64,000 nt of DNA from an uncultured Candidatus Saccharibacteria bacterium (GCA_964554805.1 CAZKPX010000003.1:76366-140365); one strand, 5' to 3'. Shown: positions 17,371 to 45,809, counted from the first letter of the stretch. Program-made: numbers and translations. Notes: generated from the sequence alone by a model not told the origin.

Positions 17371-17457
17371 GGCCGGAGTGGTGGAATGGTAGACACGGCG
17401 GACTCAAAATCCGCTGCCGTAAAACAGCGTGGAGGTTCGAGTCCTCTCTCCGGCACC
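17371..17457 (+). tRNA. tRNA-Leu (anticodon CAA), class II with long variable arm, CCA encoded
   Basis: gccggagtggtggaatggtagacacggcggaCTCAAAAtccgctgccgtaaaacagcgtggaggttcgagtcctctctccggcacca. The 7-bp acceptor stem pairs, anticodon loop is ctCAAaa, T-loop is ggttcgagtcc, 3' end is CCA. Confidence 0.85.
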
Positions 17458-22052: not shown

Positions 22053-22093
22053 CAAAAATGCACCGGTCTACTCGATGGGTGCATTTTTGTTTG
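22053..22093 (+). terminator. Rho-independent terminator
   Basis: aaaaatgcacc-ggtctactcgat-gggtgcatttttgtttg. Confidence 0.65.
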
Positions 22094-22118
22094 CATCAGC
22101 CTCAACCAGTGTTATACT
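22091..22118 (+). promoter_or_regulatory. Candidate sigma70 promoter (TTGCAT, 16 nt, TATACT) for the 22150-29292 gene string
   Basis: ttgcat at 22091-22096 and tatact at 22113-22118, about 30 nt upstream of the ATG at 22150. Confidence 0.45.
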
Positions 22119-22149
22119 AGCTTAGTCTAGCTGTAGGCTGGTTGATTTT

Positions 22150-23625
22150 ATGAAAAAACTTGAAGATCGCTTAAAAGAATATCGCCAAGCTAGACCTACT
22201 GTTTTTGAGGAAGAAGGCTTTGTCCGAACTCTGGTTTTATTTCAAGAGATGGCTGAACGCGTGCCGGCATATAAAGACTTTTTGGCCAAGCATTCGATTG
22301 AGCCTGCAAAAATAAAAACTAAGTCGGATTTTGAGCAAGTGCCGATTATGGGCAAGGAGTCTTACTTGACAGCCTATCCGCTTCAAGATATGTGTTGGGA
22401 CGGCAAGATGGATGGCTTGTCGGTTATTTCATCCAGCTCCGGTTCAACAGGTAAATCGTTCATGTGGCCTCGTGGTCAGGAGCAAGAAGTAGAGGGTGAG
22501 CAGTATATAGAGCAGTTGTTTGCAGATTTTTTTGATATCGGTCAGCGTCGAACCTTGTATATTAATTGTTTCTCTATGGGAACATGGGTGGCGGGAACAT
22601 ATTTGTTGTCTAGTGTGGAGAGGTTGAGTTGGAAGGGATATCCGATCATTACGGTATGTCCGGGTATAGAGAAAAAGCTATCCCTGCAGTTATTTCAAGA
22701 TTTAGCTGGACAATTTGATCAAGTAATTTTTGGTGGATATCCGCCTTTAGTTAAAGATATTTTGGACGAAGGTCGGCAACAGGGGATTGATTGGGAAAAG
22801 CATACTATTCGATTTTTATTTGCGGCTGAAGGTTTTAGCGAGCAGTGGCGATCACATATTCATTCATTGGTGGGTTCGACTGATGCGTATGCGACCTCAA
22901 TTAATATCTTTGGTTCAGCGGATGCTACTATTCTCGGTCATGAAACACCTCTCACCAACGCTATTCGACAGAAACTTGGTAGGTTGCCGGAAAATCTAGA
23001 CAAGCTGGTTGGATCTGAGAGGATGCCAACTTTGGTTCAATATGATCCACGGCTACGATATTTTGAAGGACATGACGGTCAATTGCTGTTTAGTGCCCGT
23101 GCTGGTTTGCCTTTGGTGCGATATGCTATCGGTGATAATGGAGGTTGTCGGAGTTTTGATGATATGCGACAGTTGAATATGGAGCTAGGATTTGATTGGT
23201 CTAAGGATCTAGCCTTGAAGAACAAAACCTGGAATTTGCCATTTGTATGGGTTTTTGGTCGCAAGAACTTGGCTACTAATTTGTATGGTGCGTTGATCTT
23301 CCCTGAGTACATTAAGGCAGGTCTTGAAGAGAAGGCTGTGGTTAATCGAGTTACGGGCAAGTTTGTCATGTCTACTGAGACTGACGAAGGCAACGACCAA
23401 TTCCTGGGCGTTATGGTTGAGATGGCTGCTGGACAGGACCATAATCTAGAATTGCAAGAGCTGGTGACAACGAAGATAGTAGAGGCATTGGCCCGTCAGA
23501 GTAGTGAATATTCGGCTTTGAGCAAGTCCATTCAAGACAGAGCTGTGCCTAGGATTGAGCTGGTGCCTTATGGTTCGAATTTGTTTCAGGTAGGTTCAAA
23601 GCACCGGTGGGTTGTCAAAAAATAG
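22150..23625 (+). CDS. PaaK/coenzyme-F390-synthetase-like adenylate-forming enzyme (ANL superfamily)
   Basis: N-terminal helical region typical of phenylacetate-CoA ligase (VPAYKDFLAKHSIEPAKIKTKSDFEQVPIMGKESYL). The P-loop-like SSSGSTGKSFMWP corresponds to the SSGTTGKP adenylation motif. Confidence 0.6.
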   Translation: MKKLEDRLKEYRQARPTVFEEEGFVRTLVLFQEMAERVPAYKDFLAKHSIEPAKIKTKSDFEQVPIMGKESYLTAYPLQDMCWDGKMDGLSVISSSSGSTGKSFMWPRGQEQEVEGEQYIEQLFADFFDIGQRRTLYINCFSMGTWVAGTYLLSSVERLSWKGYPIITVCPGIEKKLSLQLFQDLAGQFDQVIFGGYPPLVKDILDEGRQQGIDWEKHTIRFLFAAEGFSEQWRSHIHSLVGSTDAYATSINIFGSADATILGHETPLTNAIRQKLGRLPENLDKLVGSERMPTLVQYDPRLRYFEGHDGQLLFSARAGLPLVRYAIGDNGGCRSFDDMRQLNMELGFDWSKDLALKNKTWNLPFVWVFGRKNLATNLYGALIFPEYIKAGLEEKAVVNRVTGKFVMSTETDEGNDQFLGVMVEMAAGQDHNLELQELVTTKIVEALARQSSEYSALSKSIQDRAVPRIELVPYGSNLFQVGSKHRWVVKK

Positions 23626-23644
23626 AAAATTAAAGGATTACAGC

Positions 23645-24787
23645 ATGGATAAGCCGGTAATTTTTCATCAAGGTTCGTACACAATAGCCGATCTGGAGCG
23701 TTTTCAAGCGGAACACAGGATATGGCGAGTGGTTGATATTTATGCTGAACAGTTGGCTGAGTTATTTGAGATTGAGCATCCGCACCAGGTTGGTCAGACT
23801 GATTTTGAGGGGCAAAGGGATGAATTTGTGGCTGCGACTACTGCCTCCGGTATTAAAGATAAGGGGGACTGGATTTACTATCCATGGAGCGGGATCTTAT
23901 TGCATACCATGATGCAAATGGAAGTTTGGCAATTGCGGACTAACAGAAATCAGTTGTTAATCGATGAGGAGGGACAGAATCATTTAACTAGCCAAGCGGT
24001 GGGGTTTGCAGGATTGTCTATTGGGGCTTCGTATGCTGCAAGCTTGGCCTACAGCGGTATTGCTAATCGGATGAAGTTGGCTGATATGGATAGGTTGTCG
24101 ACGAGTAATCTGAACCGGGTTCAGGCAGGTTTGGCTGCGGTTGGTCAGAAAAAAGTTGAGATAGTCGCTGAAAGAATTTATGAGATTAATCCTTATCAGA
24201 CATTCGAGTTGTTCGAAGATGGCTTGGATCGGAACAATCTGAATCAATTCTTTGGCGGAGATGGTGATCGAACCCGGCTCAATTTGGTTTTTGAAGCGGT
24301 TGATGATTTTGAGCTAAAAGTACGATTGCGCTTGAAGGCTAAGGAGCATAAAGTCCCCCTGATTATGCTGACTAATCTTGGCGATCGTATTTTAATTGAT
24401 GTTGAGCGCTATGATTATGATATTGATTTGATGCCATTTAATGGCTTATTGTCTCAAGAGGTGATCGATCAAATCTTAAGTGGGCAATCTGGGGCTATTA
24501 CGAAGCACATTATTTCATTGCTAGGTATAGACAATCTATCGCTGCCGATTGTCGAGTCTCTCAATCAAATAGGGTCTAGTTTGGTGGGGAGACCACAGCT
24601 GTTTGGCTCGGTAACTATAGGCGGCGGCTTGGCTAGTTATTTGTCTCGGCAGGTATTTTTGGGGCATACGCTGTTGTCTGGCCGGTATGCGCTTTCTTTG
24701 GATGCCTTGGTTGGTATTGATAGCCAAGAAGACCCTGAGCAGCGGCAGCAGGCTGTGGATGTATTAATGAAACGAGCTGGCCTATGA
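23645..24787 (+). CDS. ThiF/MoeB/E1-like adenylyltransferase-fold protein, cysteine-free, with a roughly 120 aa N-terminal extension
   Basis: Rossmann dinucleotide/ATP motif VGFAGLSIGASYAASLAYSGI, then ADMDRLSTSNLNRVQ (E1 Arg-finger/Asp region). No Cys anywhere, so no zinc tetrad and no catalytic Cys. Start set at ATG 23645, which has an AAAGGA SD. Confidence 0.55.
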   Translation: MDKPVIFHQGSYTIADLERFQAEHRIWRVVDIYAEQLAELFEIEHPHQVGQTDFEGQRDEFVAATTASGIKDKGDWIYYPWSGILLHTMMQMEVWQLRTNRNQLLIDEEGQNHLTSQAVGFAGLSIGASYAASLAYSGIANRMKLADMDRLSTSNLNRVQAGLAAVGQKKVEIVAERIYEINPYQTFELFEDGLDRNNLNQFFGGDGDRTRLNLVFEAVDDFELKVRLRLKAKEHKVPLIMLTNLGDRILIDVERYDYDIDLMPFNGLLSQEVIDQILSGQSGAITKHIISLLGIDNLSLPIVESLNQIGSSLVGRPQLFGSVTIGGGLASYLSRQVFLGHTLLSGRYALSLDALVGIDSQEDPEQRQQAVDVLMKRAGL

Positions 24788-25827
24788 AGTGGTTTGAATC
24801 GCCAGCCTATAAAGTTTGGCATATTAAGGCCAGTGACTATCCTTGGCAGGGAAGTCGGGACGATCAGATACGGCATTTGTTGGCCTATGCAGTTTTGGCG
24901 CCATCTACCTTTAATAGCCAGCCATGGTTATTTGATATAAAAGATGATCGGATTGTCGTGCGACTTGATATAGCCAGGATGCCTAAAGTGTCTGATAAGG
25001 ATATGAGATTTGGGGTGGCTTCAGTAGGGTGTTTTATAGAGAATTTGATGGTAGCTGCTGAGTATTTTGGCTGGAAGGTGCGGGTAGAACTGAATCATGA
25101 ACTGATTCTAGCCAATGATACTGTGGCTATACTTTGGCTTGAGTCTGCCGGTGAGGCTGGTAATCAGCAGTTAGATGGTCGGCTGATGGAGGCAATGGTG
25201 AATCGAGCTACAAACCGCAGTTTGAGTAGTCAGTTTCAGTTGGACGACGAAACATTGTCTGAGTTGAAATCATTAGCGATGGCAGGTCAAGAAATAATTA
25301 TTATAGATAACTCTAAAACTGATAATTTGATTGCTATATCACAGCAAGCTGATATGAGAATTTGGTCTCATATTGATTTTCGCAAAGAGCATGTGGCTTG
25401 GGTGCGCAATAATCTATCCCGGCAGCCTGATGGCATGCCAGCCTTTGGCGTAGGTGTTAGCTTACTACCATCATTGTTGGCTAAGCCGGTGATTCTTAGC
25501 TCAAAGTTTGCCTCAATTCAGGCAGCCAAGAACGTACAATCGCTAAAAAGTACTTGCTACTTTGTAGTTATATGTTCGGCTGAGGGCAAGGCTGCATGGA
25601 CAGAAGTAGGAAGAACTTTTGAGAGACTAGGTCTGGAGCTGACAGTCAGAGGCTTGGGGTTGGCGCCGATGGGACAGTTTGTGGCCGATGAGCATGCCAG
25701 ACAAGAGCTTCAGGATTTGCTTAAGTCAGCTAATCCACCGCAAATTTTTGCTCGGATCAATAAGCCTTCAATTCCGGTTAAGCATAGCCCCCGCTTGGCT
25801 GTTAATGATATTATGTCTACAGTATAA
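24784..25827 (+). CDS. Nitroreductase-superfamily (SagB/McbC-type) FMN dehydrogenase, double-domain
   Basis: PSTFNSQPWLF is the canonical nitroreductase FMN-binding motif. The 347 aa length fits the two-lobed SagB-type dehydrogenases. Overlaps the upstream gene by 4 nt (ATGA). Confidence 0.6.
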   Translation: MKWFESPAYKVWHIKASDYPWQGSRDDQIRHLLAYAVLAPSTFNSQPWLFDIKDDRIVVRLDIARMPKVSDKDMRFGVASVGCFIENLMVAAEYFGWKVRVELNHELILANDTVAILWLESAGEAGNQQLDGRLMEAMVNRATNRSLSSQFQLDDETLSELKSLAMAGQEIIIIDNSKTDNLIAISQQADMRIWSHIDFRKEHVAWVRNNLSRQPDGMPAFGVGVSLLPSLLAKPVILSSKFASIQAAKNVQSLKSTCYFVVICSAEGKAAWTEVGRTFERLGLELTVRGLGLAPMGQFVADEHARQELQDLLKSANPPQIFARINKPSIPVKHSPRLAVNDIMSTV

Positions 25828-25872
25828 AATAATGGATATAGATCAGCAGATAGCGCTGTATTTATGACGTAA

Positions 25873-28101
25873 TTGCGATTTGATTTTTTTATGATTCTGC
25901 CCATTGTAACCTTAGTTGCGGTTTTTATTAACCTAATTTTGGGTTTGTTTGTTTTACAGAAAAATAGTAAAAGCGCCACCAATCGGTTATTCTTTTTGTT
26001 GTGTGCGGCGATTTTGCTATGGACAGTCTTTAACTATTTCTCTCTTCGTCCGATAGGGGACAGTGAGATTATTTACTGGTTGCGAGCTCATATGGTGTCT
26101 GCCGTTTTGGTTGCCGCAAGCTTTGTGTTATTTATCTATAATTTCCCTCATGCAGGGTTTACATTCCGTAAACGTGTTTTTAGTTTATACATGATATTGG
26201 TGGTATTGGCAGCGGTGGTGACAGCTACTTCGTGGGTATTCCAATCCGCAACAGAGCTATCTGATGGACAGGTAAAAACTGAAGTTGGGCCCCTGATCCC
26301 ATTGTTTGGCATTGTAGCTTTTGGATCGGTGCTAGCTGGCATTATTATTGTGGTTCAGCGATTTAGACATAGTCGAGGCAAATTGCGCGATCAGCTGCGC
26401 TATATGCTGCTCGGCACATCGTTGATGTTTGGATTGGTGTTTTTGCTGATTTTTATTCCTATTGTGGTGTTCAATAATACAACTTTCGCCCCATATCTAC
26501 CTATCATCACCTTTCCGTTTGTGGCATGCGTGACATATGCTATTGTTCGCCATAGTCTGCTAGATATTCGTCTGGTGGTGGCTAGGTCAGTTGCGTATAC
26601 GTTAACGGTTTCGATTTTATTGGTTTCTTACGTGGCGGCTGCTCTGTATGTCGGCAGGCTGTTTTATCAGGGAGAAATGCTGTCTGGGCAGATTGCGGTA
26701 TATGGAATCTTGGCCGTGTTTGTGGCTGCGACTTTCCAGCCATTGAGAAGTCGATTGGACCAAGTTACCGAGAATATGTTCTTTAAGGGCGGGTACAATA
26801 CCAGTGAGCTGGTCCGTCAAGTGACAGAGATTATGGCAAAGACTCTGCACCTGGGGGATTTGTCGCGGCAGTCGTTGGAAATAATTATATCGACCATCCA
26901 GGTCAGCAAGGGTAGTTTTTGGGTATTAGAAGACGGAGAGTTCTATTGTTTTGCCTCTCAGGGGATGATCAATAAAGATATTCAGTACTACACTCATAAT
27001 CAAGCATACCTACAGTCATTGTGTGATGATAAAAGTTGCCCAGTTTTATTAAAAGCGGATGGATCAAAAGAACTGAAGAAGATGAAGATGGAGGTGGCGG
27101 TGCCGCTATTTGCTGGAGACGAGTTGCAAGGATTCTTGCTACTAGGGGAAAAACAATCGGGAGAGGTTTATTCGCAACAAGATATTCACGCTCTGTCAAT
27201 TCTGGGGCCTAGTTTGGCGATTAGTTTGGAAAATGCCAGGAGTTATAAGCAGATTAGTGAGTTTAATCAGACCTTGGAGCAAGAGGTTGATAAGGCAACG
27301 CGTGATTTGACGGTGGCTAATGACAAATTATCTCGCAGTAACGCTAAGTTGCGACAACTGGATAGTTTGAAGGATGAATTTATTTCGATTACGTCGCATG
27401 AATTACGAACGCCGTTGACGGCTATCCGTGGCTATTTGTGGATGGCGATGCATGGTAAGGCTCAGGATCAAAAGACCCAGGATGAGTATATGGATCGAGC
27501 ATATACCTCGACTGAACGGTTGATTGCTTTGGTTAATGATAGTCTGGATATTTCTCGAATTGATTCTGGGCGGGTTCAGCTTAGCCCACTGCCAACTGAT
27601 ATTTATGCTTTGGCTAAAGAGGTGGCTACCGACCTGATGCCTCGAGCAACCCAGCAGGGCCAGGTGTTAGAAGTCCGGAGACCAGTCAAGGCCTTGCCGG
27701 CGGTAATGGTAGATCCAGAGAAGCTATATCAGGTTTTGACTAATCTGGTGGGAAATGCCTTAAAATTTACACCATCGAATGGTGAAATCAGTGTTAGTTT
27801 TGCGGTGGAAGGGGAGAAGGTGGTGGCAAGTGTCAAGGATAGTGGGCCGGGTATTGATGATGATGATAAGAAGCGGTTATTTCAGAAGTTTTCACGATTG
27901 GATGCTTCGGCAACCGTGCCTGGAACCGGTTTGGGGCTTTTCTTGTGCAAGGAGATCATTCATTTATCTAAGGGGCGGATTTGGGTAGAAAGTAAGCCGG
28001 GTGGTGGGTCTAATTTTCGGTTTACCTTGCCAATGACAAAGTCCCAGGCAGTGAAGGCTGAGGATAGAACACAGCATCCGCAGCGCTTAATGGTAGCGTA
28101 A
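25873..28101 (+). CDS. Membrane sensor histidine kinase
   Basis: 6-7 N-terminal TM helices, HisKA H-box (ITSHELRTPLTAIRGY), N/G1/G2 boxes (LVGNALKFT, DSGPGIDDD, GTGLGLFLCKEI). Confidence 0.85.
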   Translation: MRFDFFMILPIVTLVAVFINLILGLFVLQKNSKSATNRLFFLLCAAILLWTVFNYFSLRPIGDSEIIYWLRAHMVSAVLVAASFVLFIYNFPHAGFTFRKRVFSLYMILVVLAAVVTATSWVFQSATELSDGQVKTEVGPLIPLFGIVAFGSVLAGIIIVVQRFRHSRGKLRDQLRYMLLGTSLMFGLVFLLIFIPIVVFNNTTFAPYLPIITFPFVACVTYAIVRHSLLDIRLVVARSVAYTLTVSILLVSYVAAALYVGRLFYQGEMLSGQIAVYGILAVFVAATFQPLRSRLDQVTENMFFKGGYNTSELVRQVTEIMAKTLHLGDLSRQSLEIIISTIQVSKGSFWVLEDGEFYCFASQGMINKDIQYYTHNQAYLQSLCDDKSCPVLLKADGSKELKKMKMEVAVPLFAGDELQGFLLLGEKQSGEVYSQQDIHALSILGPSLAISLENARSYKQISEFNQTLEQEVDKATRDLTVANDKLSRSNAKLRQLDSLKDEFISITSHELRTPLTAIRGYLWMAMHGKAQDQKTQDEYMDRAYTSTERLIALVNDSLDISRIDSGRVQLSPLPTDIYALAKEVATDLMPRATQQGQVLEVRRPVKALPAVMVDPEKLYQVLTNLVGNALKFTPSNGEISVSFAVEGEKVVASVKDSGPGIDDDDKKRLFQKFSRLDASATVPGTGLGLFLCKEIIHLSKGRIWVESKPGGGSNFRFTLPMTKSQAVKAEDRTQHPQRLMVA

Positions 28102-28172
28102 CGGGGGGCTGGAGGCGGCGAGGTGTGGCTTATGAGGATTATGTTACAATACAGCAATGAGGAGAAATTTTT

Positions 28173-28550
28173 ATGGCAAAACTATTAGTAGTTGAAGACG
28201 ATCAGTTTTTATTGGATTTATATTGTGACCTATTGAGTGGTGAGGGGTATGAGGTTGACCGAGCTGTTAATGGCACAGAAGCTTTTGAAAAGATGTCGAA
28301 AGAGCAGTACGATTTGGTGTTGCTGGATATCATGTTGCCCGAGAAAGATGGTATTACTGTTCTGAAAGAATTAACTGAAAATCAGCGCAAGAAGGTGGGT
28401 CAGGTAGTGTTGTTGACCAATTTGAATCAAGAAGCATTGATCAACGAAGGTTTTTCGTTGGGCGTGGTTGGGTATCTGATTAAATCGGCTCTGGCTCCAG
28501 ATCAGGTGTTGTCTGAGGTGAGGAGCTTTTTAGATGCCGGCAAGAAATAA
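28173..28550 (+). CDS. Single-domain response regulator (CheY-like receiver only)
   Basis: LLVVEDDQ...LVLLDIMLPEKDG (phospho-acceptor Asp region) and a K in the LIKSAL region. No output domain. Confidence 0.8.
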   Translation: MAKLLVVEDDQFLLDLYCDLLSGEGYEVDRAVNGTEAFEKMSKEQYDLVLLDIMLPEKDGITVLKELTENQRKKVGQVVLLTNLNQEALINEGFSLGVVGYLIKSALAPDQVLSEVRSFLDAGKK

Positions 28551-29292
28551 GAAGGCTAAGGGTGCGACGAGCGACGAGCGACGAGCGACGGGAATAGATG
28601 GTGAGGTTATAGCTCTGGTTTTGCCGCCGGTGCTGTATGAGGATGATGCGATAATGGTGCTCAATAAGCCGGCTGGGTTGGTGGTTGAGAAGAGCCATAC
28701 TCATTCGCAGGTAACCTTGCAGGATTTATTGCCGTTTGCTGATGAGGTGGATAGGGCTGGTTTGGTGCACCGGCTTGATCGAGATACGTCCGGAGTAATG
28801 GTAGTGGCAAAGACTAATGACAGTCAGGCTGCGCTGCAAAAGCAATTTTTGGAACGAACTACTGATAAAGAGTATATGGCTTTGGTGTGGGGTAAATTGG
28901 CAGATGATCATGCTGTCATTAATGCGCCGATTGCCCGTCATCCCAAGATTGGCTATAAATATGTGGTAATGGACGGTGGGCGGGATGCTAAGACTGAATT
29001 TTGGCGGCTTGGCGAGTATAAACTAGCCGATGATGTAGCAAGCTTGATTAAAGTAGATCTTCATACTGGTCGGACACATCAGATTCGGGTTCATATGATG
29101 GCCATGGGCCATGCTTTGGTTGGTGATACAGTCTATGGTCGTCGAAAGGATAAATCTGCAATTCGACAATTTCTGCATGCCTCGAAGCTCAGCCTGCAAC
29201 ATCCAGCCACCGGGAAGACCATGACCTTTGAGGCACCGCTGGCTGATGATTTGCAACGATTTTTGGATGGCTTGAAGCAGACGAATGAGTAG
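28534..29292 (+). CDS. RluA-family pseudouridine synthase
   Basis: HRLDRDTSGVMVVAKT catalytic Asp motif, LYEDDAIMVLNKPAG. The N-terminal 25 aa are encoded by a (GCGACG)n copy (ATSDERRATG). Confidence 0.8.
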   Translation: MPARNKKAKGATSDERRATGIDGEVIALVLPPVLYEDDAIMVLNKPAGLVVEKSHTHSQVTLQDLLPFADEVDRAGLVHRLDRDTSGVMVVAKTNDSQAALQKQFLERTTDKEYMALVWGKLADDHAVINAPIARHPKIGYKYVVMDGGRDAKTEFWRLGEYKLADDVASLIKVDLHTGRTHQIRVHMMAMGHALVGDTVYGRRKDKSAIRQFLHASKLSLQHPATGKTMTFEAPLADDLQRFLDGLKQTNE

Positions 29293-29307
29293 AGTAGCTT
29301 AACGAGA

Positions 29308-30165
29308 GGTTGTGGTGGCAACTTCGGGTTGTGGCAACTCCGGGAGTTGCCATCTGGAGAAACACCGGTATAAGGCGGTGTTTTATTCGAGCAAAAGGTG
29401 CTTTATTGTTTCTAAGCTCTGTTGATATTTCGATCTGTTTTTAAGATAGCTGCGATAGCTTGTTGGATGATTGGGGTTGGAGTTGAATTGATTGAGAATA
29501 ATTTGTGGTTCGACGCTTACTGTGGGAGATGAGGTAGTCGACAGGTATCTGCCAACTGACGACCAGGGATAGTAATTGTTATCCTCTATATTTTTGACGA
29601 TATGAGATGATAGTGGGTTGAGGTGGATATATCGAGATAGATGAAATAGCTGTAATTCAGTTTCAACTAAAACCCCTTTAAACCTTCCTTGAAAGAGGCT
29701 GCCTGATCTGGAGTGTTTTTTATTTATATACTTAGCATAGCTATCTTGCCACATTGCTTGGAATCTCTCGATGCCGTTTGGACTCTCCTGCCGCAGCAAT
29801 AAATGATAATGATTAGGCATTAGAGCAAAAGCAATAATACTTATTTGGGGATGATTGTTGCTTTGTATTTGAGTATCAGCAGGTAGGCGAATATACTTAG
29901 AGTAGGGTAGCGGCTGATTCTGTAGTCGATAGTAGTCTAAGAGTCTAAGGCATCGCTGATAATCGGTGGAGTGAAAAAATATTGGTTGATGATCAACGCC
30001 TCTGTTGAAAATGTGATATATCTGGCTTTGGATGAGTGGTAGACGTCTTTTTGGCATTATGTTGTTTCTATACAGGGGGATAATTTGAAAGTCAACAGGC
30101 AGGCGTGTAAAAATGTGTGTTATGTGGTACCGGGGTTGTCTGAGTTGGCAACTCCCGGAGTTGCC
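29308..30165. mobile_element. REP-associated tyrosine transposase unit: IS200/IS605-like TnpA flanked by inverted 19-nt REP-like palindromes
   Basis: Left palindrome ggcaactccgggagttgcc at 29333-29351, preceded by the partial copy ggcaacttcgggttgtg. Right palindrome ggcaactcccggagttgcc at 30147-30165 is the exact reverse complement of the left one. Confidence 0.7.
29383..30057 (-). CDS. IS200/IS605-family Y1 (HUH) transposase, REP-associated tyrosine transposase-like
   Basis: HUH motif PNHYHLLL and a catalytic Tyr in RYIHLNPL. About 225 aa from the internal ATG at 30057. The 373 aa six-frame ORF is an upstream read-through. Confidence 0.75.
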   Translation of the reverse strand: MPKRRLPLIQSQIYHIFNRGVDHQPIFFHSTDYQRCLRLLDYYRLQNQPLPYSKYIRLPADTQIQSNNHPQISIIAFALMPNHYHLLLRQESPNGIERFQAMWQDSYAKYINKKHSRSGSLFQGRFKGVLVETELQLFHLSRYIHLNPLSSHIVKNIEDNNYYPWSSVGRYLSTTSSPTVSVEPQIILNQFNSNPNHPTSYRSYLKNRSKYQQSLETIKHLLLE

Positions 30166-30246
30166 TGGATGTTGGATTGGTTGCCTGTTGGGGTGGTATA
30201 CGGTACTATGAATAGTACAACCAGATGAGTAATCTGGGACTGTCCT

Positions 30247-31977
30247 ATGTTTTTGAATATTGATATAAGCTCTCCATTTTTTCAGTTTGGTGGGATGCTG
30301 GTGTTGGCATCGATAATTGGTTTGGTTTGTTATCGTCTGAAGAAGCCGTTGTTTTTTGCGTACCTGGCGACGGGGGTGTTGGTTGGTGTGGCCATGGGTG
30401 GCGACTTTGCTCATTCTGAAACAATTCACTTGTTCTCTGAATTGGGGATTGCTTTCCTGCTGTTCTTGATTGGGATGGAATTTAACCTGAAAGATATTCG
30501 GCATATCGGCAAAATCGGTTTGGTGGCTGGGTTAGGGCAGATCGCTATTGTCGGGACAATTAGCTTTAGCGTGGCGGTGTGGTTTGGTTTGGCTGTTTTG
30601 CCGTCTATTTATGTGGCTCTGGCCATGACTTTTGCCTCGATGGTTATTTCAGTTAAATATCTCAATGACCATCAAGCTACTGAAACGCTCTATGGCAAGG
30701 TGGATTTGATGATGCACTTGGTGCAGTCAGTGGTGGCTGTGTTGGCTTTGATGGTGTTGTCGACGGTGGCTGCTATTAATTGGCAGAGTCGGGGTGATAT
30801 AGCAGTCTGGGTGATAGATTTTGCGTTGTTGTTGACCAAGGGGGCGTTGCTGCTGGTGTTGTATATTTACCTTAGTCAGGCGGTTTTGCCAAAGATATTT
30901 AAGATGATGGCCGGATCGACAGAGCTATTGGTGTTGGGAAGTGTTGCCTGGTGTGTTTTTGGGGCCGGCTTGGCCTATGTGTTTGGGTTCTCGGTAGAAG
31001 TCGGCGCATTTTTGGCGGGATTAGCTTTGTCGAGTTCGGGGTATCAGTTTCAGGTGACAGCTCGAATTAAGCCAATTCGAGATTTTTTTGTGGTGGTGTT
31101 CTTTATTGGTCTGGGTATTCAAGTGACCAACTTTTCATTGTGGGAGGTGTTGTTGTCGGCCTTGGTGTTGAGCGCGGTGGTATTGGTATTGAATCCGTTG
31201 GTGTCGACGATTTTATTGAGCAGATTGGGCTACAAGCGACATACGGCTTTTTTTGCTTCGATTTTGATGAATCAGATTGGGGAATTTTCAGTTATTCTGG
31301 CGGCTTTGGGAGTTAGTTTGCATCATTTATCAGCCCAAGAGGGGTCTTTGATCACGACGACGGTGCTGTTGACGATGTTGGCTTCCAGTTATGTGATTGA
31401 TCATCAACAATGGGTTTATAAAAAGCTGCGTCCGTTGTTGGCTTGGTTGGAGCGGTCGGACGGTAAAGAGCTGAGGCTGCGCAAAAAGATCTGGAGTGAT
31501 CATGTGGTAGTGCTGGGCGCACATCGGCTGGGTAGTGATGTGTTGGATACATTGCGCAAGGGACGAGCTAAGATGTTGGTGGTGGATTATGATCCGGATC
31601 GGGTGGCCTTGCTTGAAGAAGATGGCTATGCGGTGATTTATGGCGATGCAGTGGATGAGAGTGTTTTGGAGGAGGCAGGTGTTTCCGCTGCTCGGCTGAT
31701 TATTTCAACTATTGATGATGATCCCTCTACGAGACAACTATTGAGAGAGCTGCGTCAGCAAAAAGTTGATGCGCCGGTGGTGGTGACGGCTACAACTATT
31801 AATGAAGCCTTGGATTACTACCGCTTGGGAGCAGCCTATGTTATCATTCCGATGCTTTTGGGTGGCAAGGCTATCACTCAAGTGGTTAAGGATCATTTGA
31901 GTGAAATTCATCCGTTGGAGCCGGCTAAGTTGCTTCATTTGCAGCATTTGGCGGCGGAGGGGTATTTGATGCGCTAG
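30247..31977 (+). CDS. Kef-type CPA2 monovalent cation/proton antiporter with C-terminal RCK/TrkA-N domain
   Basis: 12-13 TM helices, then the Rossmann RCK motif HVVVLGAHRLGSDV...DAVDESVLEEAGV. Confidence 0.8.
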   Translation: MFLNIDISSPFFQFGGMLVLASIIGLVCYRLKKPLFFAYLATGVLVGVAMGGDFAHSETIHLFSELGIAFLLFLIGMEFNLKDIRHIGKIGLVAGLGQIAIVGTISFSVAVWFGLAVLPSIYVALAMTFASMVISVKYLNDHQATETLYGKVDLMMHLVQSVVAVLALMVLSTVAAINWQSRGDIAVWVIDFALLLTKGALLLVLYIYLSQAVLPKIFKMMAGSTELLVLGSVAWCVFGAGLAYVFGFSVEVGAFLAGLALSSSGYQFQVTARIKPIRDFFVVVFFIGLGIQVTNFSLWEVLLSALVLSAVVLVLNPLVSTILLSRLGYKRHTAFFASILMNQIGEFSVILAALGVSLHHLSAQEGSLITTTVLLTMLASSYVIDHQQWVYKKLRPLLAWLERSDGKELRLRKKIWSDHVVVLGAHRLGSDVLDTLRKGRAKMLVVDYDPDRVALLEEDGYAVIYGDAVDESVLEEAGVSAARLIISTIDDDPSTRQLLRELRQQKVDAPVVVTATTINEALDYYRLGAAYVIIPMLLGGKAITQVVKDHLSEIHPLEPAKLLHLQHLAAEGYLMR

Positions 31978-34878: not shown

Positions 34879-37575
34879 ATGTTGTTATTAATTTTGGCAC
34901 TGTTTATTACCGGCACCATTTGTGTGGCATGGACTGTGGCTGGTAGACGAGTAGATGAGGATAAGGAGCCGCAAGAAGTGGTGGAAGGTACCTTGCTGTC
35001 TATTTTGGTGCCAAAAGAGAATGATAAGTCGCCAATGTCAGCTGAAATGATGTTTGCCTCACTGCATGGCTTGTTAAAGAGAACTCCTGGTTTGGAAGAA
35101 CATTTAAGTTTTGAAATTGTGGCCAACAACGACGGTATTCGGTTTTTTGTTTATTTGCCGTCGTATTTCCGAACTTTTGTCGAGGGCCAAATTTATGCTC
35201 AGTATCCCAACGCCAATATAGTTGAGGTAGAGCAAGATTATGCCAAGCACTTTTCGTCTGAGAAGGCTGTGGTGACTGCGGCTGAAATCTCTTTGAGTAA
35301 GGAGTATTTTTATCCTATTAAGACCTTTGTTGATTTTCAGGTTGATCCCTTGGCGGCCGTTACCGGAGCGGTGGAGAGATTGGAAGAAGGCGAGCAGGTT
35401 TGGATTCAGCTACTGCTTCGACCGCTGGACGATGTCTGGCAAGAAGCAGGTTACGCTTATGTAGAAAAAGTTAAAGCCGGTAAAAAAGAGTCACAAGATG
35501 GTTTTTTGATGGCTATTGTGAAGGGCGTGATGGGGGAGCTGGGTATGAATTTGCCGGGAACCGCTTTTGGGATGACGCCAGCTGAAGGGGCTGCTGCAGA
35601 TAAAAAGCCCGAAGGGCCAAAGTTGACGGCTGGTCAAGAGCTGGAGTTGAAGGCTATAGAAAATAAGATGACTAAGCTGGGCTTTGAAACTGCTTTGCGA
35701 ATTGTGGCAGTGGGCGAGACCGCTCAAGCTTCTCAACAATCACTTAATTCAGTTATTGCCTCGCTACGTCAATTTTCGATGACTCATCTTAATAGTTTTA
35801 AGTTATCCGAATTGGATCGAAGTGCCGAAGAGATTTTTTATGAATATCAAGCTCGATCTTTCCCGATTGATGAAGAGAGCTTCTTTGTCTTGAATGCTGA
35901 AGAAGTAGCTTCTATTTTCCATTTGCCAAATAGCTCAGTTGAAACGCCGACTATTGCCTGGAGCAAGTCTAAGCAGCTCGAGCCACCATTAAATCTGCCT
36001 CAAGATGTAAATACTGTCTTTGCTAAAACTGCTTTCCGGAATCGATCGGTACCGTTTGGTATACAGCGCGAGGATCGTCGTCGTCACATGTATATGATCG
36101 GAAAGACCGGTACTGGTAAGTCGACCTTGATGGAAAATATGATTATGCAGGATATTTTGGCTGGTGAAGGTTTGGCCATTATGGATCCGCATGGCGATAC
36201 TATTGATCGATTGCTGGACAATATTCCAGAGCACCGAATCAAAGATGTGGTGTTGTTTGACCCATCAGACACAGCGCATCCGGTCAGCATGAACATGTTA
36301 GAGATGATTAATGAGGAGCAGAAGAGCGTTATGGCTTCGGCCTTGGTGGATGTGTTTAAGCGGCGTTTTGACTCTTGGGGGCCTCGACTTGAATATTTGC
36401 TGCGTAATTCTATTTTGACATTGCTGGAAGTGCCAAATACGACTCTATTGGGCATTAATCGATTGTTGATTGATAAAGAGTATCGCAAATATATTGTGAG
36501 CTTGATCGAAGATGAGCAGTTGCGGAATTTTTGGAATAAAGAGTATGCGACCATGGCCTCTAATGATCGATTGATCACCGAAGCTGTAGCTCCGATTCAA
36601 AACAAGGTAGGTCAGTTCTTGCAGACGCCGATTATCCGCAATATTGTCGGTCAGGCCAAGTCGACTATTCGGGTTGAGGATATTATTAATGAGAATAAGA
36701 TTTTCTTGATTAACTTGTCCAAGGGTAAAATCGGTGAAGATAACTCGTCGATGTTGGGTGGAATGATTATTTCTCGCCTGCAGAATGCGGCCATGGCTCG
36801 AGTGAATATTCCCGAAGATCAACGTAAAGACTTTTATGTGTATGCTGATGAGTTCCAGAACTTTGCTACGTCCAGCTTTGCCACGATTTTGTCTGAGGCT
36901 CGTAAGTATCGTCTTAATCTGATTATCACTCACCAATATATTAGCCAGATGCCAGATGAGGTGCGGGAGGCTGTGTTTGGTAACGTTGGGACAACCGTTT
37001 CCTTTACGGTCGGACCAAGTGATGCGACGGTGCTGGCTAGTCAGTTTGCACCAGTATTGCAACCTGAGGATATGGTGCGGCTGGAGAAGCATCATATCTA
37101 TGTTAAATTGATGATTGATGGTATGGAGTCTCGTCCATTTAGTGCCTCGACTTTGCCGCCGATTGCTCGCCACGAAGGCCATAAAGCGGCTATCATTGAA
37201 GCTTCTAGGCTTCAGTATGCACCTAAAACAGCGGCTGAAGTGGAGGAGCGAATTGCCAAGTGGAATATGAAGAAGTTCCAGATTGGGGTAGACGATGTAT
37301 CGGTTAAGCGGATGCGAGATGGTTCGCGCGCAAATGCAGAAGAGGTCAAGGCATCTTCATTGCCAGCTAGTACAGATTCTATCATGCCTCCTCGTCACGA
37401 GCGAGTTATTGGGGCAGGTGGAGCAGAAGCACCTACGGTAGTCACCCCAACTATCATTCGGGGAGTTCCAGGTGGCGTTGGTCATACAACCGTTGTTCGG
37501 CATGTGGCCACTTCCGGATCTAGCGGCGAAATCATCTTGAATAATTCAATTAATCACACAGATACACCACAGTAG
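34879..37575 (+). CDS. VirD4/TraD/TraG-like (type IV coupling protein family) P-loop ATPase with N-terminal TM anchor and a roughly 400 aa unknown N-terminal domain
   Basis: Walker A MIGKTGTGKSTLMEN followed by IMDPHGD. Walker B FYVYADEFQNF, then ARKYRLNLIITHQYISQM (T4CP-type C-motif). One N-terminal TM. Confidence 0.55.
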   Translation: MLLLILALFITGTICVAWTVAGRRVDEDKEPQEVVEGTLLSILVPKENDKSPMSAEMMFASLHGLLKRTPGLEEHLSFEIVANNDGIRFFVYLPSYFRTFVEGQIYAQYPNANIVEVEQDYAKHFSSEKAVVTAAEISLSKEYFYPIKTFVDFQVDPLAAVTGAVERLEEGEQVWIQLLLRPLDDVWQEAGYAYVEKVKAGKKESQDGFLMAIVKGVMGELGMNLPGTAFGMTPAEGAAADKKPEGPKLTAGQELELKAIENKMTKLGFETALRIVAVGETAQASQQSLNSVIASLRQFSMTHLNSFKLSELDRSAEEIFYEYQARSFPIDEESFFVLNAEEVASIFHLPNSSVETPTIAWSKSKQLEPPLNLPQDVNTVFAKTAFRNRSVPFGIQREDRRRHMYMIGKTGTGKSTLMENMIMQDILAGEGLAIMDPHGDTIDRLLDNIPEHRIKDVVLFDPSDTAHPVSMNMLEMINEEQKSVMASALVDVFKRRFDSWGPRLEYLLRNSILTLLEVPNTTLLGINRLLIDKEYRKYIVSLIEDEQLRNFWNKEYATMASNDRLITEAVAPIQNKVGQFLQTPIIRNIVGQAKSTIRVEDIINENKIFLINLSKGKIGEDNSSMLGGMIISRLQNAAMARVNIPEDQRKDFYVYADEFQNFATSSFATILSEARKYRLNLIITHQYISQMPDEVREAVFGNVGTTVSFTVGPSDATVLASQFAPVLQPEDMVRLEKHHIYVKLMIDGMESRPFSASTLPPIARHEGHKAAIIEASRLQYAPKTAAEVEERIAKWNMKKFQIGVDDVSVKRMRDGSRANAEEVKASSLPASTDSIMPPRHERVIGAGGAEAPTVVTPTIIRGVPGGVGHTTVVRHVATSGSSGEIILNNSINHTDTPQ

Positions 37576-45772: not shown

Positions 45773-45809
45773 GCTTGCCCGCTAGATAGGTATGCTTTAT
45801 CATAGATAC

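What the first reader, a model, noticed from the sequence alone, without database searches (positions are those of the whole stretch)
22091..28550. Non-canonical peptide/small-molecule modification cassette: PaaK-like adenylating enzyme, Cys-less ThiF/E1-like protein and SagB-type double nitroreductase, linked to a histidine kinase and a receiver-only response regulator
Three genes run from a private promoter at about 22091 and overlap or abut (the second and third share ATGA). A sensor kinase and a stand-alone receiver follow.

E1-like and SagB/McbC-like FMN dehydrogenase are two of the three hallmark components of TOMM/microcin-B17-type RiPP machinery, but the ATP-dependent YcaO cyclodehydratase is absent. 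In its place is an ANL-superfamily adenylate-forming enzyme (PaaK/F390-synthetase-like, SSSGSTGKS).

The E1-like protein contains no cysteine at all. It therefore cannot form a thioester or a zinc tetrad, which makes it more like MccB/PaaA-type peptide-adenylating E1 homologs, and it carries a roughly 120 aa N-terminal extension that could act as a peptide clamp.

No precursor-peptide ORF is evident nearby. This combination is not a textbook operon and may be a new RiPP-like or nucleotide-modification pathway, possibly with signalling output through the attached two-component pair.
Basis: partly seen in the sequence, partly recalled or inferred. Interest (0 to 1): 0.7.

Follow-up and report, generated by a model that had tools for sequence, protein, structure and literature searches.

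The report
Oxazolone-type small-molecule cassette with sensor kinase
This operon, in an uncultured ultra-small (CPR/Patescibacteria-type) bacterium, is most likely a variant of the recently discovered oxazolone small-molecule pathway rather than a peptide-modifying (RiPP) system, and across this group it is consistently linked to a membrane sensor kinase, which suggests a signalling role.

Summary
Five plus-strand genes lie at 22150-28550: a PaaK-like adenylating enzyme, a cysteine-free ThiF-like protein, an overlapping (ATGA) double-nitroreductase-fold flavoprotein, a 7TM-GAF histidine kinase and a receiver-only regulator.

The RiPP/TOMM reading is not supported. The ThiF-like and flavoprotein genes are the two halves of the Rv1355c/TrzS-type ThiF-flavin oxidase fusion. 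Its characterised members (OxzB, TyzB/TyzC, TrzS) turn N-acyl amino acids into oxazolones.

The usual acyl-CoA N-acyltransferase is missing, and a PaaK-like enzyme takes its place. This pairing is backed by:
- Co-conservation: 26 of 29 well-flanked relatives of the ThiF gene have the PaaK-like gene and 22 have all four genes, in at least eight gene orders, while flanking genes are not conserved.
- Fusion proteins: PaaK-ThiF, amino-acid dehydrogenase-PaaK-ThiF, and ThiF-flavoprotein.

No YcaO or conserved precursor peptide was found.

Most likely mechanism (inferred): the PaaK-like enzyme activates an acid and supplies an N-acyl amino acid, the ThiF-like enzyme cyclises it using ATP, and the flavoprotein desaturates it. 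The product may be sensed by the kinase.

Verdict: new variant of a known kind; moderately high interest.

The parts
22058..22092 (+). Hairpin ATGCACC-N13-GGTGCAT followed by TTTTGTTT. Likely the terminator of the upstream DksA/YteA-like gene, marking the 5' boundary of the cassette.
   Evidence: Read directly from the sequence. The scan tool lists a related hairpin on the minus strand at 22077-22061. The plus-strand version has a 13-nt loop, beyond the tool's 8-nt limit.
22090..22118 (+). Promoter-like site TTTGCA-17-TATACT with TG before the -10, 32 nt upstream of the g1 ATG.
   Evidence: 9 of 12 matches. Not significant on its own: 12 sites in the region against 14.3 expected. Only its position supports it.
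22150..23625 (+). g1: PaaK-like (ANL-superfamily) adenylate-forming enzyme, 491 aa. [quoted passage not shown]
   Evidence: - No Pfam hit. Weak NCBIfam PaaK match, 43.5 bits against a cut-off of 646.
- AF2 model pLDDT 88.8. Foldseek: PaaK1 3e-24, BT_0428, HCL, and the ClxA amide ligase.
- Invariant SSGSTG, YGSAD, RYxxxD and C-terminal Lys484 motifs across 32 homologues.
- Fused in frame to the ThiF-like domain in P0305 and P0304.
23645..24787 (+). g2: cysteine-free ThiF-like ATP-dependent cyclase, the N-half of an Rv1355c/TrzS-type oxazolone synthetase, 380 aa.
   Evidence: - NF005901 Rv1355c family, 2.4e-76, model positions 10-351 of 722.
- ATP-site residues R98, R101, G123, G127, D147, D149, N155, R158, K170 and D220 align with E. 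coli ThiF R8, R11, G35, G40, D59, D61, N67, R70, K83 and D127.
- 0 Cys.
24784..25827 (+). g3: Acg/FDO-type (flavin-dependent oxidase) FMN enzyme with a double nitroreductase fold. It corresponds to the C-half of the fusion enzyme and is the proposed C-alpha/C-beta desaturase. 347 aa.
   Evidence: - NF047509 Acg family, 3e-55 (187.9 bits, cut-off 199), and Rv1355c model positions 373-549.
- PDB 2YMV Acg, 8e-9 over residues 33-327.
- Invariant LAPS-N-QPW, R141, W206 and D216 motifs shared with fused relatives.
- Overlaps g2 by ATGA.
25891..28101 (+). Sensor histidine kinase: N-terminal 7TM region, GAF-like region, HisKA and HATPase domains. Co-conserved with the biosynthetic genes.
   Evidence: - Pfam HisKA_7TM 3.6e-16, HisKA, HATPase_c, and weak sub-threshold GAF matches.
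- Full-length homologues (29-39% identity, 94-99% coverage) adjacent in many related loci.
- It is the last gene of the module, on the strand of the ThiF-like gene, in every arrangement where it was found.
28173..28550 (+). Stand-alone receiver (CheY-like) response regulator, 125 aa, with no output domain.
   Evidence: Pfam Response_reg 2.5e-22. A receiver gene is present in 13 of 29 well-flanked related loci. Its 3' end overlaps the RluA-like gene (28534-29292), which is not conserved with the module.

Best explanation
g1-g3 encode a three-enzyme pathway for a small amino-acid-derived heterocycle. It is a variant of the oxazolone (azlactone) pathway known from Pseudoalteromonas (OxzAB) and mycobacteria (TyzACB, TrzAS).

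Step 1 (inferred). [quoted passage not shown] It passes the acyl group to the amino group of an amino acid, directly or via a thioester, giving an N-acyl amino acid. It thereby replaces the acyl-CoA-dependent N-acyltransferase of the known systems.

Step 2 (homology shown, chemistry inferred). The cysteine-free ThiF-like g2 adenylates the free carboxylate of that N-acyl amino acid. The amide oxygen then attacks, closing a 5(4H)-oxazolone ring and releasing AMP.

Step 3 (homology shown, chemistry inferred). The FMN enzyme g3 desaturates C-alpha/C-beta to give the conjugated 4-ylidene oxazolone.

Step 4 (inferred from co-conservation only). The 7TM-GAF kinase and receiver-only regulator form the module's signalling arm. 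They most simply act as a sensor of the product or of a cue that controls it.

The window carries the minimal form. Relatives add an amino-acid dehydrogenase, an aminotransferase or an alpha/beta-hydrolase.
For: Homology to oxazolone synthetase:
- g2 matches the N-half and g3 the C-half of NCBIfam NF005901, the Rv1355c family.
- Rv1355c is TrzS, a ThiF-flavin oxidase fusion shown to make N-acyl tryptazolones. The split pair TyzB/TyzC and the fusion OxzB do the same for tyrosine and phenylalanine.
- A Levyibacteriota relative has g2 and g3 fused (765 aa; 381 bits on NF005901, 238 bits on the Acg model). About a third of the top 150 ThiF relatives are 650-790 aa long, the length expected of such fusions.
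- All ThiF ATP-site residues are kept, including D220. It aligns with ThiF D127, the residue class mutated in the inactive TrzS D217A variant.
- The closest solved relative by sequence is TcdA, itself an oxazolone-forming dehydratase.

Link to g1:
- Of 29 loci with at least 3 kb on both sides of the ThiF gene, 26 have the PaaK-like gene, 25 the flavoprotein, 23 the 7TM kinase and 22 all four.
- At least eight gene orders and orientations occur.
- Flanking genes are conserved in at most 1 of 160 loci.
- Fusion proteins exist: PaaK-ThiF (P0305), and ELFV (Glu/Leu/Phe/Val-type) amino-acid dehydrogenase-PaaK-ThiF (P0304, found in two independent NCBI assemblies). Both sit in the same module context.
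- A very divergent ANL gene also overlaps the fused ThiF-flavoprotein gene in a high-GC actinobacterial lineage.

Amino-acid chemistry:
- An ELFV dehydrogenase (32 module-bearing loci), an aminotransferase (13) or an unknown Rossmann protein (7) sits beside the module. The three are mutually exclusive.
- One relative has the ThiF domain fused to an aromatic amino-acid ammonia-lyase.

Precedent: the PaaK-like enzyme ClxA, described in the literature as an amide ligase, is among g1's structural neighbours.
Against: - No product or activity is known for any member of this CPR subfamily.
- g1 could be an ordinary CoA ligase. If so, an unidentified acyltransferase would still be needed, and none was found.
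- g1 homologues at about 40% identity occur without ThiF or flavoprotein genes in cyanobacteria, Chloroflexia, methanotrophs and actinomycetes. The family's reaction is therefore not tied to oxazolones.
- The two flavoprotein pocket residues mutated in M. smegmatis TrzS (R540, Q651) are Leu147 and Ala295 in g3. Substrate, and possibly chemistry, may differ.
- g3 scores slightly under the Acg-family cut-off, and g2 is under the full-length Rv1355c cut-off, which is expected for a half protein.
- Known flavin oxidases of this group need O2, whereas from general knowledge (not tested here) many CPR bacteria are anaerobes.
- Some relatives lack the flavoprotein (for example L035) or lack both ThiF and flavoprotein (L051).
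- The kinase link is purely genomic, and the regulator has no output domain.
Confidence: 0.55

Rival explanations
1. Same enzymes but different chemistry. g1 and g2 perform two successive ATP-dependent carboxylate activations on an amino-acid- or 2-oxo-acid-derived small molecule. The product is not an oxazolone; it could be another heterocycle, a dehydro-amide or ester, or a ring-opened N-acyl dehydroamino acid conjugate.
For: - The flavoprotein pocket residues differ from TrzS.
- Many relatives add an alpha/beta-hydrolase between ThiF and the kinase, or fused to ThiF. This enzyme could open or transfer an activated ring.
- Amino-acid dehydrogenase or aminotransferase partners suggest a 2-oxo-acid substrate for g1.
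- ThiF-like enzymes are versatile.
Against: - The window itself has no hydrolase, dehydrogenase or aminotransferase of these kinds.
- Every characterised ThiF-flavin oxidase pair makes oxazolones.
- The closest solved sequence relative, TcdA, also makes an oxazolone.
Confidence: 0.22
2. One reading: a RiPP-like, TOMM-related peptide-modification system. The E1-like protein adenylates a peptide C-terminus and the flavoprotein oxidises an azoline-type ring, with the PaaK-like enzyme standing in for YcaO.
For: - A peptide C-terminus is formally an N-acyl amino acid, so the chemistry is not impossible.
- MccB and PaaA are among g2's structural neighbours.
Against: - No YcaO among the 41 window ORFs scanned.
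- No credible precursor ORF near the genes, and none conserved in 79 related loci.
- At E<=0.01 g3 hit only the Acg-family, Rv1355c-family and PRK14851 models, none of them a SagB-type model.
- The g2 N-terminal domain is not aligned to the MccB/PaaA clamp. It is shared with the ThiF-flavoprotein fusion proteins aligned here, two of which belong to the small-molecule-acting Rv1355c/TrzS family.
- Fusions are to amino-acid-metabolising enzymes, not to peptide-recognition or protease/transporter domains.
Confidence: 0.06
3. Unrelated housekeeping genes that merely sit together: g2 as a TcdA/ThiF/MoeB-type enzyme, g3 as a general NAD(P)H nitroreductase or Acg-like stress protein, and g1 as a phenylacetate-CoA ligase for aromatic catabolism.
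For: - Weak family-level hits to TcdA, ThiF, MoeB and PaaK.
- g1 relatives stand alone in other phyla.
Against: - Scores are far below the equivalog cut-offs: TcdA 44 against 304, MoeB 52 against 377, PaaK 43.5 against 646.
- There is no Cys or zinc tetrad. No ThiS/MoaD gene was noted among the module's immediate neighbours, though this was not searched for specifically.
- Strong co-conservation, shuffled gene orders and in-frame fusions.
Confidence: 0.03
4. The pathway assignment is correct, but the kinase and regulator are not a receptor for the product. They are a regulatory or unrelated envelope-sensing pair carried along with the operon.
For: - The regulator has no DNA-binding output and is present in only 13 of 29 well-flanked loci.
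- The actinobacterial ANL plus fused ThiF-flavoprotein loci have no such kinase.
Against: - The kinase's 7TM sensor region itself is conserved with the module in 23 of 29 loci.
- It keeps its position downstream of the biosynthetic genes through at least eight rearrangements.
- It is retained next to g1 even where ThiF and the flavoprotein are missing (L051).
Confidence: 0.4

Closest known systems
TyzACB of Mycobacterium tuberculosis (N-acyl tyrazolone pathway; PMC10404671)
   Same: A separate ThiF-like cyclase (TyzB) and a separate single-chain FDO-type (flavin-dependent oxidase) nitroreductase-superfamily enzyme with a lid (TyzC), encoded side by side. ATP-dependent cyclisation plus flavin-dependent desaturation of an N-acyl amino acid.
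   Different: - The N-acyl amino acid there comes from TyzA, an acyl-CoA N-acyltransferase with an AHL-synthase/FeeM-like fold. Here no such gene exists and a PaaK-like adenylating enzyme is co-conserved and sometimes fused.
- There is no linked sensor kinase in Mtb.
- By profile score, g2 is closer to the Rv1355c/TrzS-type ThiF domain.
TrzAS (Rv1356c/Rv1355c) of mycobacteria and Rhodococcus (PMC12856293) and OxzAB of Pseudoalteromonas rubra (bioRxiv 10.1101/2020.06.11.147165)
   Same: - Same two catalytic domains, including the roughly 100-residue N-terminal region of the ThiF domain (NF005901 match from model position 10).
- The conserved ATP-site Asp.
- Fused versions of the window's type exist in CPR bacteria (L010).
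   Different: - Split into two overlapping genes here.
- The TrzS pocket residues R540 and Q651 are not conserved.
- The acyltransferase is replaced by an ANL enzyme.
- Found in Patescibacteria-type genomes and tied to a two-component system. In Mtb, trzAS is merely noted to lie next to c-di-GMP turnover genes.
TcdA (tRNA ct6A dehydratase)
   Same: Closest solved relative by sequence (1e-17). A ThiF-like enzyme that uses ATP to close an oxazolone ring.
   Different: The substrate there is t6A on tRNA, and TcdA lacks the N-terminal domain. g2 scores 44 bits against the TcdA cut-off of 304.
PaaK phenylacetate-CoA ligase and the PaaK-like amide ligase ClxA
   Same: Same fold (Foldseek 3e-24 to PaaK1; ClxA 2e-16) and the same ANL adenylation motifs.
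   Different: 15-18% identity and far below the PaaK equivalog cut-off. The acid substrate and acceptor (CoA or amine) are unknown. g1 is about 60 residues longer than PaaK.
TOMM / microcin B17 machinery (McbBCD, SagBCD)
   Same: An E1-like protein next to a flavin dehydrogenase of the nitroreductase superfamily, making an oxidised five-membered O,N-heterocycle.
   Different: There is no YcaO and no precursor peptide. The dehydrogenase is Acg/FDO-type, not SagB/McbC-type. The E1-like protein is catalytic (ATP site intact) rather than a docking scaffold. The substrate class of characterised relatives is a free N-acyl amino acid.
Autoinducer synthase plus membrane sensor-kinase gene pairs such as CqsA/CqsS and LuxM/LuxN of Vibrio (from general knowledge, not tested here)
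   Same: Small-molecule biosynthetic gene(s) encoded next to a polytopic membrane histidine kinase.
   Different: No homology to those systems. Ligand sensing by this kinase is untested.

Membership tests
Oxazolone synthetase (OxzB / TyzB+TyzC / TrzS; NCBIfam NF005901 'Rv1355c family') | ThiF-like domain of the Rv1355c type, including its N-terminal region | tested here: met
   g2 scores 2.4e-76 (257.5 bits) over model positions 10-351 of 722. This is below the full-length cut-off of 476, as expected for half of a fusion. The fused CPR relative L010 scores 381 bits.
Oxazolone synthetase (OxzB / TyzB+TyzC / TrzS; NCBIfam NF005901 'Rv1355c family') | Intact adenylation site, including the Asp equivalent to TrzS D217 / E. 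coli ThiF D127 | tested here: met
   R98, R101, G123, G127, D147, D149, N155, R158, K170 and D220 align with the ThiF ATP-site residues and are invariant in 9 of 9 sequences. The role of D217 is described.
Oxazolone synthetase (OxzB / TyzB+TyzC / TrzS; NCBIfam NF005901 'Rv1355c family') | FDO-type nitroreductase-superfamily partner, fused or adjacent | tested here: met
   g3 overlaps g2 by ATGA. It matches Rv1355c model positions 373-549 and the Acg family at 3e-55. It is adjacent in 25 of 29 well-flanked loci and fused in L010 and P0327.
Oxazolone synthetase (OxzB / TyzB+TyzC / TrzS; NCBIfam NF005901 'Rv1355c family') | Flavoprotein pocket residues shown to matter in M. smegmatis TrzS (R540, Q651) | tested here: not met
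   Mutagenic primers give the contexts TDRI[R]YLTP and GVSV[Q]PVSP. g3 has NRATNRS-L147 and GLGL-A295-PMGQ. The actinobacterial fused homologues also lack them, so they look subfamily-specific rather than family-defining.
Oxazolone synthetase (OxzB / TyzB+TyzC / TrzS; NCBIfam NF005901 'Rv1355c family') | Adjacent acyl-CoA N-acyltransferase (OxzA/TyzA/TrzA) | tested here: not met
   No such gene in the window (Pfam on 41 ORFs) or among recurrent neighbours. A PaaK-like ANL enzyme occupies that place.
Oxazolone synthetase (OxzB / TyzB+TyzC / TrzS; NCBIfam NF005901 'Rv1355c family') | Product is a 4-ylidene-oxazol-5-one made from an N-acyl amino acid | not testable with these tools
   Requires expression and mass spectrometry.
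TOMM / microcin B17-type RiPP machinery | YcaO cyclodehydratase | tested here: not met
   No YcaO among the 41 scanned window ORFs or among conserved neighbour clusters. Six window ORFs of 150 aa or more were not scanned.
TOMM / microcin B17-type RiPP machinery | SagB/McbC-type FMN dehydrogenase | tested here: not met
   An NCBIfam scan of g3 at E<=0.01 returned only the Acg-family, Rv1355c-family and PRK14851 models, none of them SagB-type.
TOMM / microcin B17-type RiPP machinery | Precursor peptide gene | tested here: not met
   No credible small ORF in the intergenic regions. No small ORF is shared by more than 9 of 79 loci, and those that are shared look like frame shadows of neighbouring genes.
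MccB/PaaA peptide-adenylating E1 homologues | N-terminal peptide-clamp domain and a peptide substrate | tested here: not met
   [not shown]
TcdA (NF011696) | Equivalog-level profile match | tested here: not met
   44.1 bits against a cut-off of 304.
ThiF/MoeB sulfur-carrier adenylyltransferases | Zinc-binding Cys tetrad or active-site Cys, and a ThiS/MoaD partner | tested here: not met
   g2 has no cysteine. The CxxC regions of E. coli ThiF align to gaps or an unrelated insert. No ThiS/MoaD-like gene was noted among the module's neighbours, but this was not searched for specifically.
PaaK phenylacetate-CoA ligase (TIGR02155) | Equivalog-level match | tested here: not met
   43.5 bits against a cut-off of 646. 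The fold and ANL motifs are shared, so g1 is PaaK-like but not a PaaK.
Acg family FMN-binding oxidoreductase (NF047509) | Profile score above the curated cut-off | tested here: inconclusive
   g3 scores 187.9 bits against a cut-off of 199. The fused relatives L010 (238) and L154 (205) pass. PDB Acg 2YMV matches at 8e-9 over residues 33-327.
Two-component system | HisKA and HATPase_c kinase core, and a receiver domain | tested here: met
   Pfam HisKA 2.3e-17, HATPase_c 8e-30 and Response_reg 2.5e-22. The H-box SHELRTP and the receiver's acceptor-Asp motif LLDIMLP are visible in the translations.

The most novel reading that the evidence does not exclude
The five genes form a self-contained chemical-signalling circuit that is widespread in CPR/Patescibacteria. 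A PaaK-ThiF-flavoprotein 'synthase' makes an oxazolone (or a derived N-acyl dehydroamino acid) autoinducer. The adjacent 7TM-GAF kinase is its cognate membrane receptor and signals through a CheY-like regulator. If so, this would be a native quorum- or host-sensing system of these reduced episymbionts, and the first physiological role assigned to bacterial oxazolones.
Probability: 0.22. Interest if true: 0.85.

Novelty: new variant of a known kind. Interest (0 to 1): 0.62.

Why it matters
- Oxazolone synthetases were discovered only in 2020-21. Their biological role is an acknowledged open question; the TrzS authors speculate about signalling.
- This cassette shows a previously undescribed way of feeding the pathway: an ATP-dependent PaaK-like enzyme replaces the acyl-CoA acyltransferase. 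That would suit organisms with few biosynthetic genes.
- It places the pathway in CPR/Patescibacteria, a group in which few small-molecule pathways are described (my general knowledge).
- It gives the clearest genomic link so far between oxazolone synthesis and a dedicated sensor kinase.
- The link makes the signalling hypothesis directly testable with five small genes.
- It also offers a set of natural fusion enzymes (dehydrogenase-ligase-cyclase) of possible biocatalytic interest.
- Searches of the held literature for this gene combination found no description of it.

Tried and rejected
- An exact look-up of g2 with the TTG 23612 start found nothing. The ATG 23645 start is the one on record.
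- PADLOC gave only generic E1-E2 (Cap2-like) matches to the ThiF core and nothing for g1 or g3. An anti-phage Cap2-type reading was dropped.
- The conserved neighbours of the cyanobacterial g1 homologues (Ser/Thr kinase, ParA/ParB-like, desaturase, pentapeptide proteins) reflect synteny among closely related Microcoleus genomes and carry no functional information.
- I tried to map TrzS R540 and Q651 by number. The TrzS sequence was not retrievable, so I used the mutagenic primer sequences from the paper's supplement. The residues turned out not to be conserved.
- A fold search against afdb50 was unavailable.
- The best structural neighbour of g2, AclA of Tenacibaculum discolor (9EGB), could not be linked to any paper in the library. 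Its chemistry is unknown to me.
- The roughly 515-aa Rossmann-like accessory protein (cluster c13) has no Pfam, NCBIfam or PDB sequence match.
- Rfam found no riboswitch or leader RNA in front of g1 at gathering thresholds.
- The organism could not be named. The proteins carry no source names. The CPR assignment rests on the taxa of the closest homologues and on gene content.

Full report
**What is there**

The region holds five closely spaced plus-strand genes, downstream of a hairpin and T-run that end a DksA/YteA-like gene.

| Gene | Coordinates | Size | Identity |
|---|---|---|---|
| g1 | 22150-23625 | 491 aa | PaaK-like adenylating enzyme |
| g2 | 23645-24787 | 380 aa | Cys-free ThiF-like protein |
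| g3 | 24784-25827 | 347 aa | double-nitroreductase-fold flavoprotein |
| kinase | 25891-28101 | 736 aa | 7TM-GAF histidine kinase |
| regulator | 28173-28550 | 125 aa | receiver only |

- The g2 start at ATG 23645 has an AAAGGA upstream and is the start used on two public contigs.
- g3 overlaps g2 by ATGA.
- g1 stops 19 nt before g2, g1 carries SSSGSTGKS at residues 95-103, and g2 has no cysteine.
- A promoter-like site lies at 22090-22118. Such sites are no more frequent in the region than in shuffled sequence.
- The window looks like a CPR/Patescibacteria genome. Almost all genes are on one strand, GC skew is strong and many ORFs have no family. The named closest homologues are from Saccharimonadales, Magasanikbacteria, Levyibacteriota and similar groups.

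**What the proteins are**

*g2.* It has a Pfam ThiF domain. Its best match by far is NCBIfam NF005901, the Rv1355c family, at 2.4e-76 over model positions 10-351 of 722. g3 matches positions 373-549 of the same model, and the Acg-family FMN oxidoreductase model at 3e-55. The two genes are therefore a split version of the Rv1355c-type fusion.

[quoted passage not shown] It converts N-acyl tryptophan to N-acyl tryptazolone by ATP-dependent cyclisation followed by O2-dependent desaturation (PMC12856293). The split pair TyzB/TyzC of M. tuberculosis (PMC10404671) and the fusion OxzB of Pseudoalteromonas rubra do the same with tyrosine or phenylalanine. In all three systems an acyl-CoA N-acyltransferase (TrzA, TyzA, OxzA) makes the N-acyl amino acid.

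*ATP site of g2.* It keeps every ThiF ATP-site residue. R98, R101, G123, G127, D147, D149, N155, R158, K170 and D220 align with E. coli ThiF R8, R11, G35, G40, D59, D61, N67, R70, K83 and D127. D127 is the residue class whose mutation (D217A) abolishes TrzS cyclase activity. The zinc-binding and catalytic cysteine regions of ThiF are replaced by a family-specific insert with the invariant motif GD..LIDVERYD.

*g3.* It aligns with the solved Acg protein 2YMV over residues 33-327. It shares invariant LAPS-N-QPW, R141, W206 and D216 motifs with the flavoprotein domains of fused relatives. However, the two pocket residues mutated in M. smegmatis TrzS are Leu147 and Ala295 in g3. Their contexts (TDRI-R540-YLTP and GVSV-Q651-PVSP) were recovered from the mutagenic primers. 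Substrate specificity probably differs.

*g1.* It has no Pfam hit and only weak PaaK matches. Its model (pLDDT 88.8) is nonetheless a clear PaaK-type ANL (adenylate-forming superfamily) fold: PaaK1 3e-24, then BT_0428, 2-hydroxyisobutyryl-CoA ligase and the amide ligase ClxA. The P-loop, YGSAD, RYxxxD and C-terminal Lys motifs are invariant in 32 homologues.

**Are the genes a unit?**

*From the g1 side.* A scan of one genome per species with the g1 family returned 80 loci. In the CPR genomes among them (Saccharibacteria, Levyi-, Yanofsky-, Terry-, Lloyd-, Nealson- and Andersenbacteria, Paceibacterota), g1 usually lies next to a g2 homologue and a g3 homologue. It often also lies next to a full-length homologue of the 7TM kinase. 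In cyanobacteria, Chloroflexia, methanotrophs, actinomycetes and a myxobacterium, the roughly 40%-identical g1 homologue has none of these nearby.

*From the g2 side.* A metagenome scan with the g2 family gave 80 loci. Of the 29 with at least 3 kb on both sides:
- 26 have the PaaK-like gene
- 25 have the flavoprotein
- 23 have a kinase matching the 7TM sensor region
- 22 have all four
- 13 have a receiver

*Order and controls.* At least eight gene orders and orientations occur. The commonest are g1-g2-g3-kinase (17 loci, including the window), g3-g1-g2-kinase (16) and g1-g2-(g3 reversed)-kinase (10). The window's own flanking genes (DksA-like, membrane protein, RluA-like) recur in at most 1 of 160 loci. 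This is functional linkage, not inherited synteny.

*Fusions.* A full-library profile search found 1215 representatives at E<=1e-30. About a third of the top 150 are 650-790 aa, the length expected of ThiF-flavoprotein fusions. The following fusions were confirmed by Pfam or BLAST:
- P0305: PaaK-like (37% identical to g1 over its full length) fused to ThiF-like.
- P0304: ELFV (Glu/Leu/Phe/Val-type) amino-acid dehydrogenase, PaaK-like and ThiF-like in one chain, present in two independent NCBI assemblies.
- P0377: ThiF-like fused to an aromatic amino-acid ammonia-lyase.
- P0327 and P0301: ThiF (with or without the flavoprotein) fused to an alpha/beta-hydrolase.

P0305 and P0304 both sit in the same module context, followed by an alpha/beta-hydrolase and then the 7TM kinase. 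A nitroreductase-type flavoprotein gene precedes P0304. The cut ORF that precedes P0305 did not match g3.

*Outside CPR.* A high-GC actinobacterial lineage has a fused ThiF-flavoprotein (311 bits on the Rv1355c model). It is overlapped upstream by a very divergent ANL gene (hhalign probability 72%), with no kinase nearby.

*Accessory genes.* Among the module-bearing loci, three accessory genes are mutually exclusive: an ELFV-type amino-acid dehydrogenase (32 loci), a class I/II aminotransferase (13) and an unknown Rossmann protein (7). An alpha/beta-hydrolase lies between ThiF and the kinase in 21 loci. None of these four is in the window, which therefore carries the minimal form.

**What it is not**

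- *Not a TOMM-like RiPP system.* No YcaO appears among the 41 window ORFs scanned or among recurrent neighbours. g3 hits no SagB-type model. There is no credible precursor ORF near the genes. No small ORF is conserved across 79 related loci; the few shared ones look like frame shadows of neighbouring genes.
- *Not housekeeping genes.* TcdA, ThiF, MoeB and PaaK equivalog scores are far below their cut-offs.
- *Not an anti-phage Cap2 system.* PADLOC matches only the generic E1 core.

**Mechanism, with status of each step**

1. g1 adenylates a carboxylic acid. Motifs and fold are shown; the activity is inferred. It delivers the acyl group to an amino acid to give an N-acyl amino acid. This is inferred from its replacement of the acyltransferase, from the fusions, and from the amide-ligase precedent of ClxA.
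2. g2 adenylates the N-acyl amino acid carboxylate and closes the oxazolone ring. Homology and the intact active site are shown; the chemistry is inferred.
3. g3 desaturates C-alpha/C-beta. Homology is shown; chemistry and electron acceptor are inferred.
4. The kinase and regulator form the module's signalling arm. Co-conservation is shown; ligand and output are unknown.

The dehydrogenase, aminotransferase and ammonia-lyase partners in relatives point to amino-acid or 2-oxo-acid building blocks. The alpha/beta-hydrolase suggests that some lineages process the ring further.

**Caveats**

- No member of this subfamily has been characterised.
- g1 may be a plain CoA ligase.
- g1 relatives stand alone in other phyla.
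- The pocket residues of g3 differ from TrzS.
- A few relatives lack the flavoprotein, or lack both ThiF and flavoprotein (L035, L051).
- Known enzymes of this type use O2.

**Novelty**

The oxazolone synthetase itself is known. Three things were not found in the searched literature: feeding by a PaaK-like enzyme, the wide occurrence in CPR bacteria, and the tight linkage to a 7TM sensor kinase. I rate this a new variant of a known kind. The interest lies mainly in making the proposed signalling role of oxazolones testable.

Noticed in passing
window 29383-30504 (-): The only minus-strand ORF in this stretch. Its C-half is an IS200-like Y1 transposase/RAYT domain (PF01797, 2.4e-5). Its N-half is Q/H/P/N-rich and overlaps the start of the Na+/H+ exchanger-TrkA_N gene (30247-31977). 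Public gene calls leave 29293-30246 empty. The true start is probably internal.
   Followed up: partly
related loci L005, L006, L010, L013, L035, L060, L117 (e.g. L006:6362-7909, minus strand): A roughly 515-aa protein with an N-terminal Rossmann GxGxxG motif. In the genome-contig loci where its position was listed it sits upstream of the PaaK-like gene on the opposite strand. It has no Pfam, NCBIfam or PDB sequence match. It occurs in the loci closest to the window's type. It is mutually exclusive with the ELFV dehydrogenase and the aminotransferase, and absent from the window.
   Followed up: partly
related loci, e.g. L167:9732-10607 and L166:3767-4648; fusions P0301 and P0327: An alpha/beta-hydrolase lies between the ThiF-like gene and the 7TM kinase in 21 related loci, and is fused to the ThiF (or ThiF-flavoprotein) protein in others. 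It may open or transfer the activated ring. It is absent from the window.
   Followed up: partly
P0377 (924 aa): An oxazolone-type ThiF domain fused to a full aromatic amino-acid ammonia-lyase (PF00221, 1e-170). This hints at cinnamate-type or dehydro-aromatic substrates in that lineage.
   Followed up: no
L147-L163 (high-GC soil contigs), e.g. L154:6469-10007: In an actinobacterial lineage the fused ThiF-flavoprotein (Rv1355c-family) gene is overlapped upstream by a very divergent PaaK/ANL-like gene instead of a TrzA-type acyltransferase. There is no kinase nearby.
   Followed up: partly
L051:1664-5558: A Saccharibacteria contig where the PaaK-like gene is followed directly by the 7TM kinase (apparently frameshifted into two ORFs) with no ThiF or flavoprotein. 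The kinase may be tied primarily to the g1 product.
   Followed up: no
window 34879-37575 and 43081-44073: A TrwB/DUF87-type type IV secretion coupling ATPase (898 aa) and a XerC/D-type tyrosine recombinase lie downstream. This may be mobile-element or competence-related context typical of CPR genomes.
   Followed up: no
window 44153-47429, 47585-50053 and 58570-63447: Tandem paralogous PD40 beta-propeller plus bacterial Ig-domain proteins, a BNR/sortilin-like protein, and a 1625-aa ORF with no Pfam match. These are probable surface proteins.
   Followed up: no
window 17372-17455 (+): The single tRNA gene, and the only Rfam hit in the window.
   Followed up: no
[not shown]
   Followed up: partly
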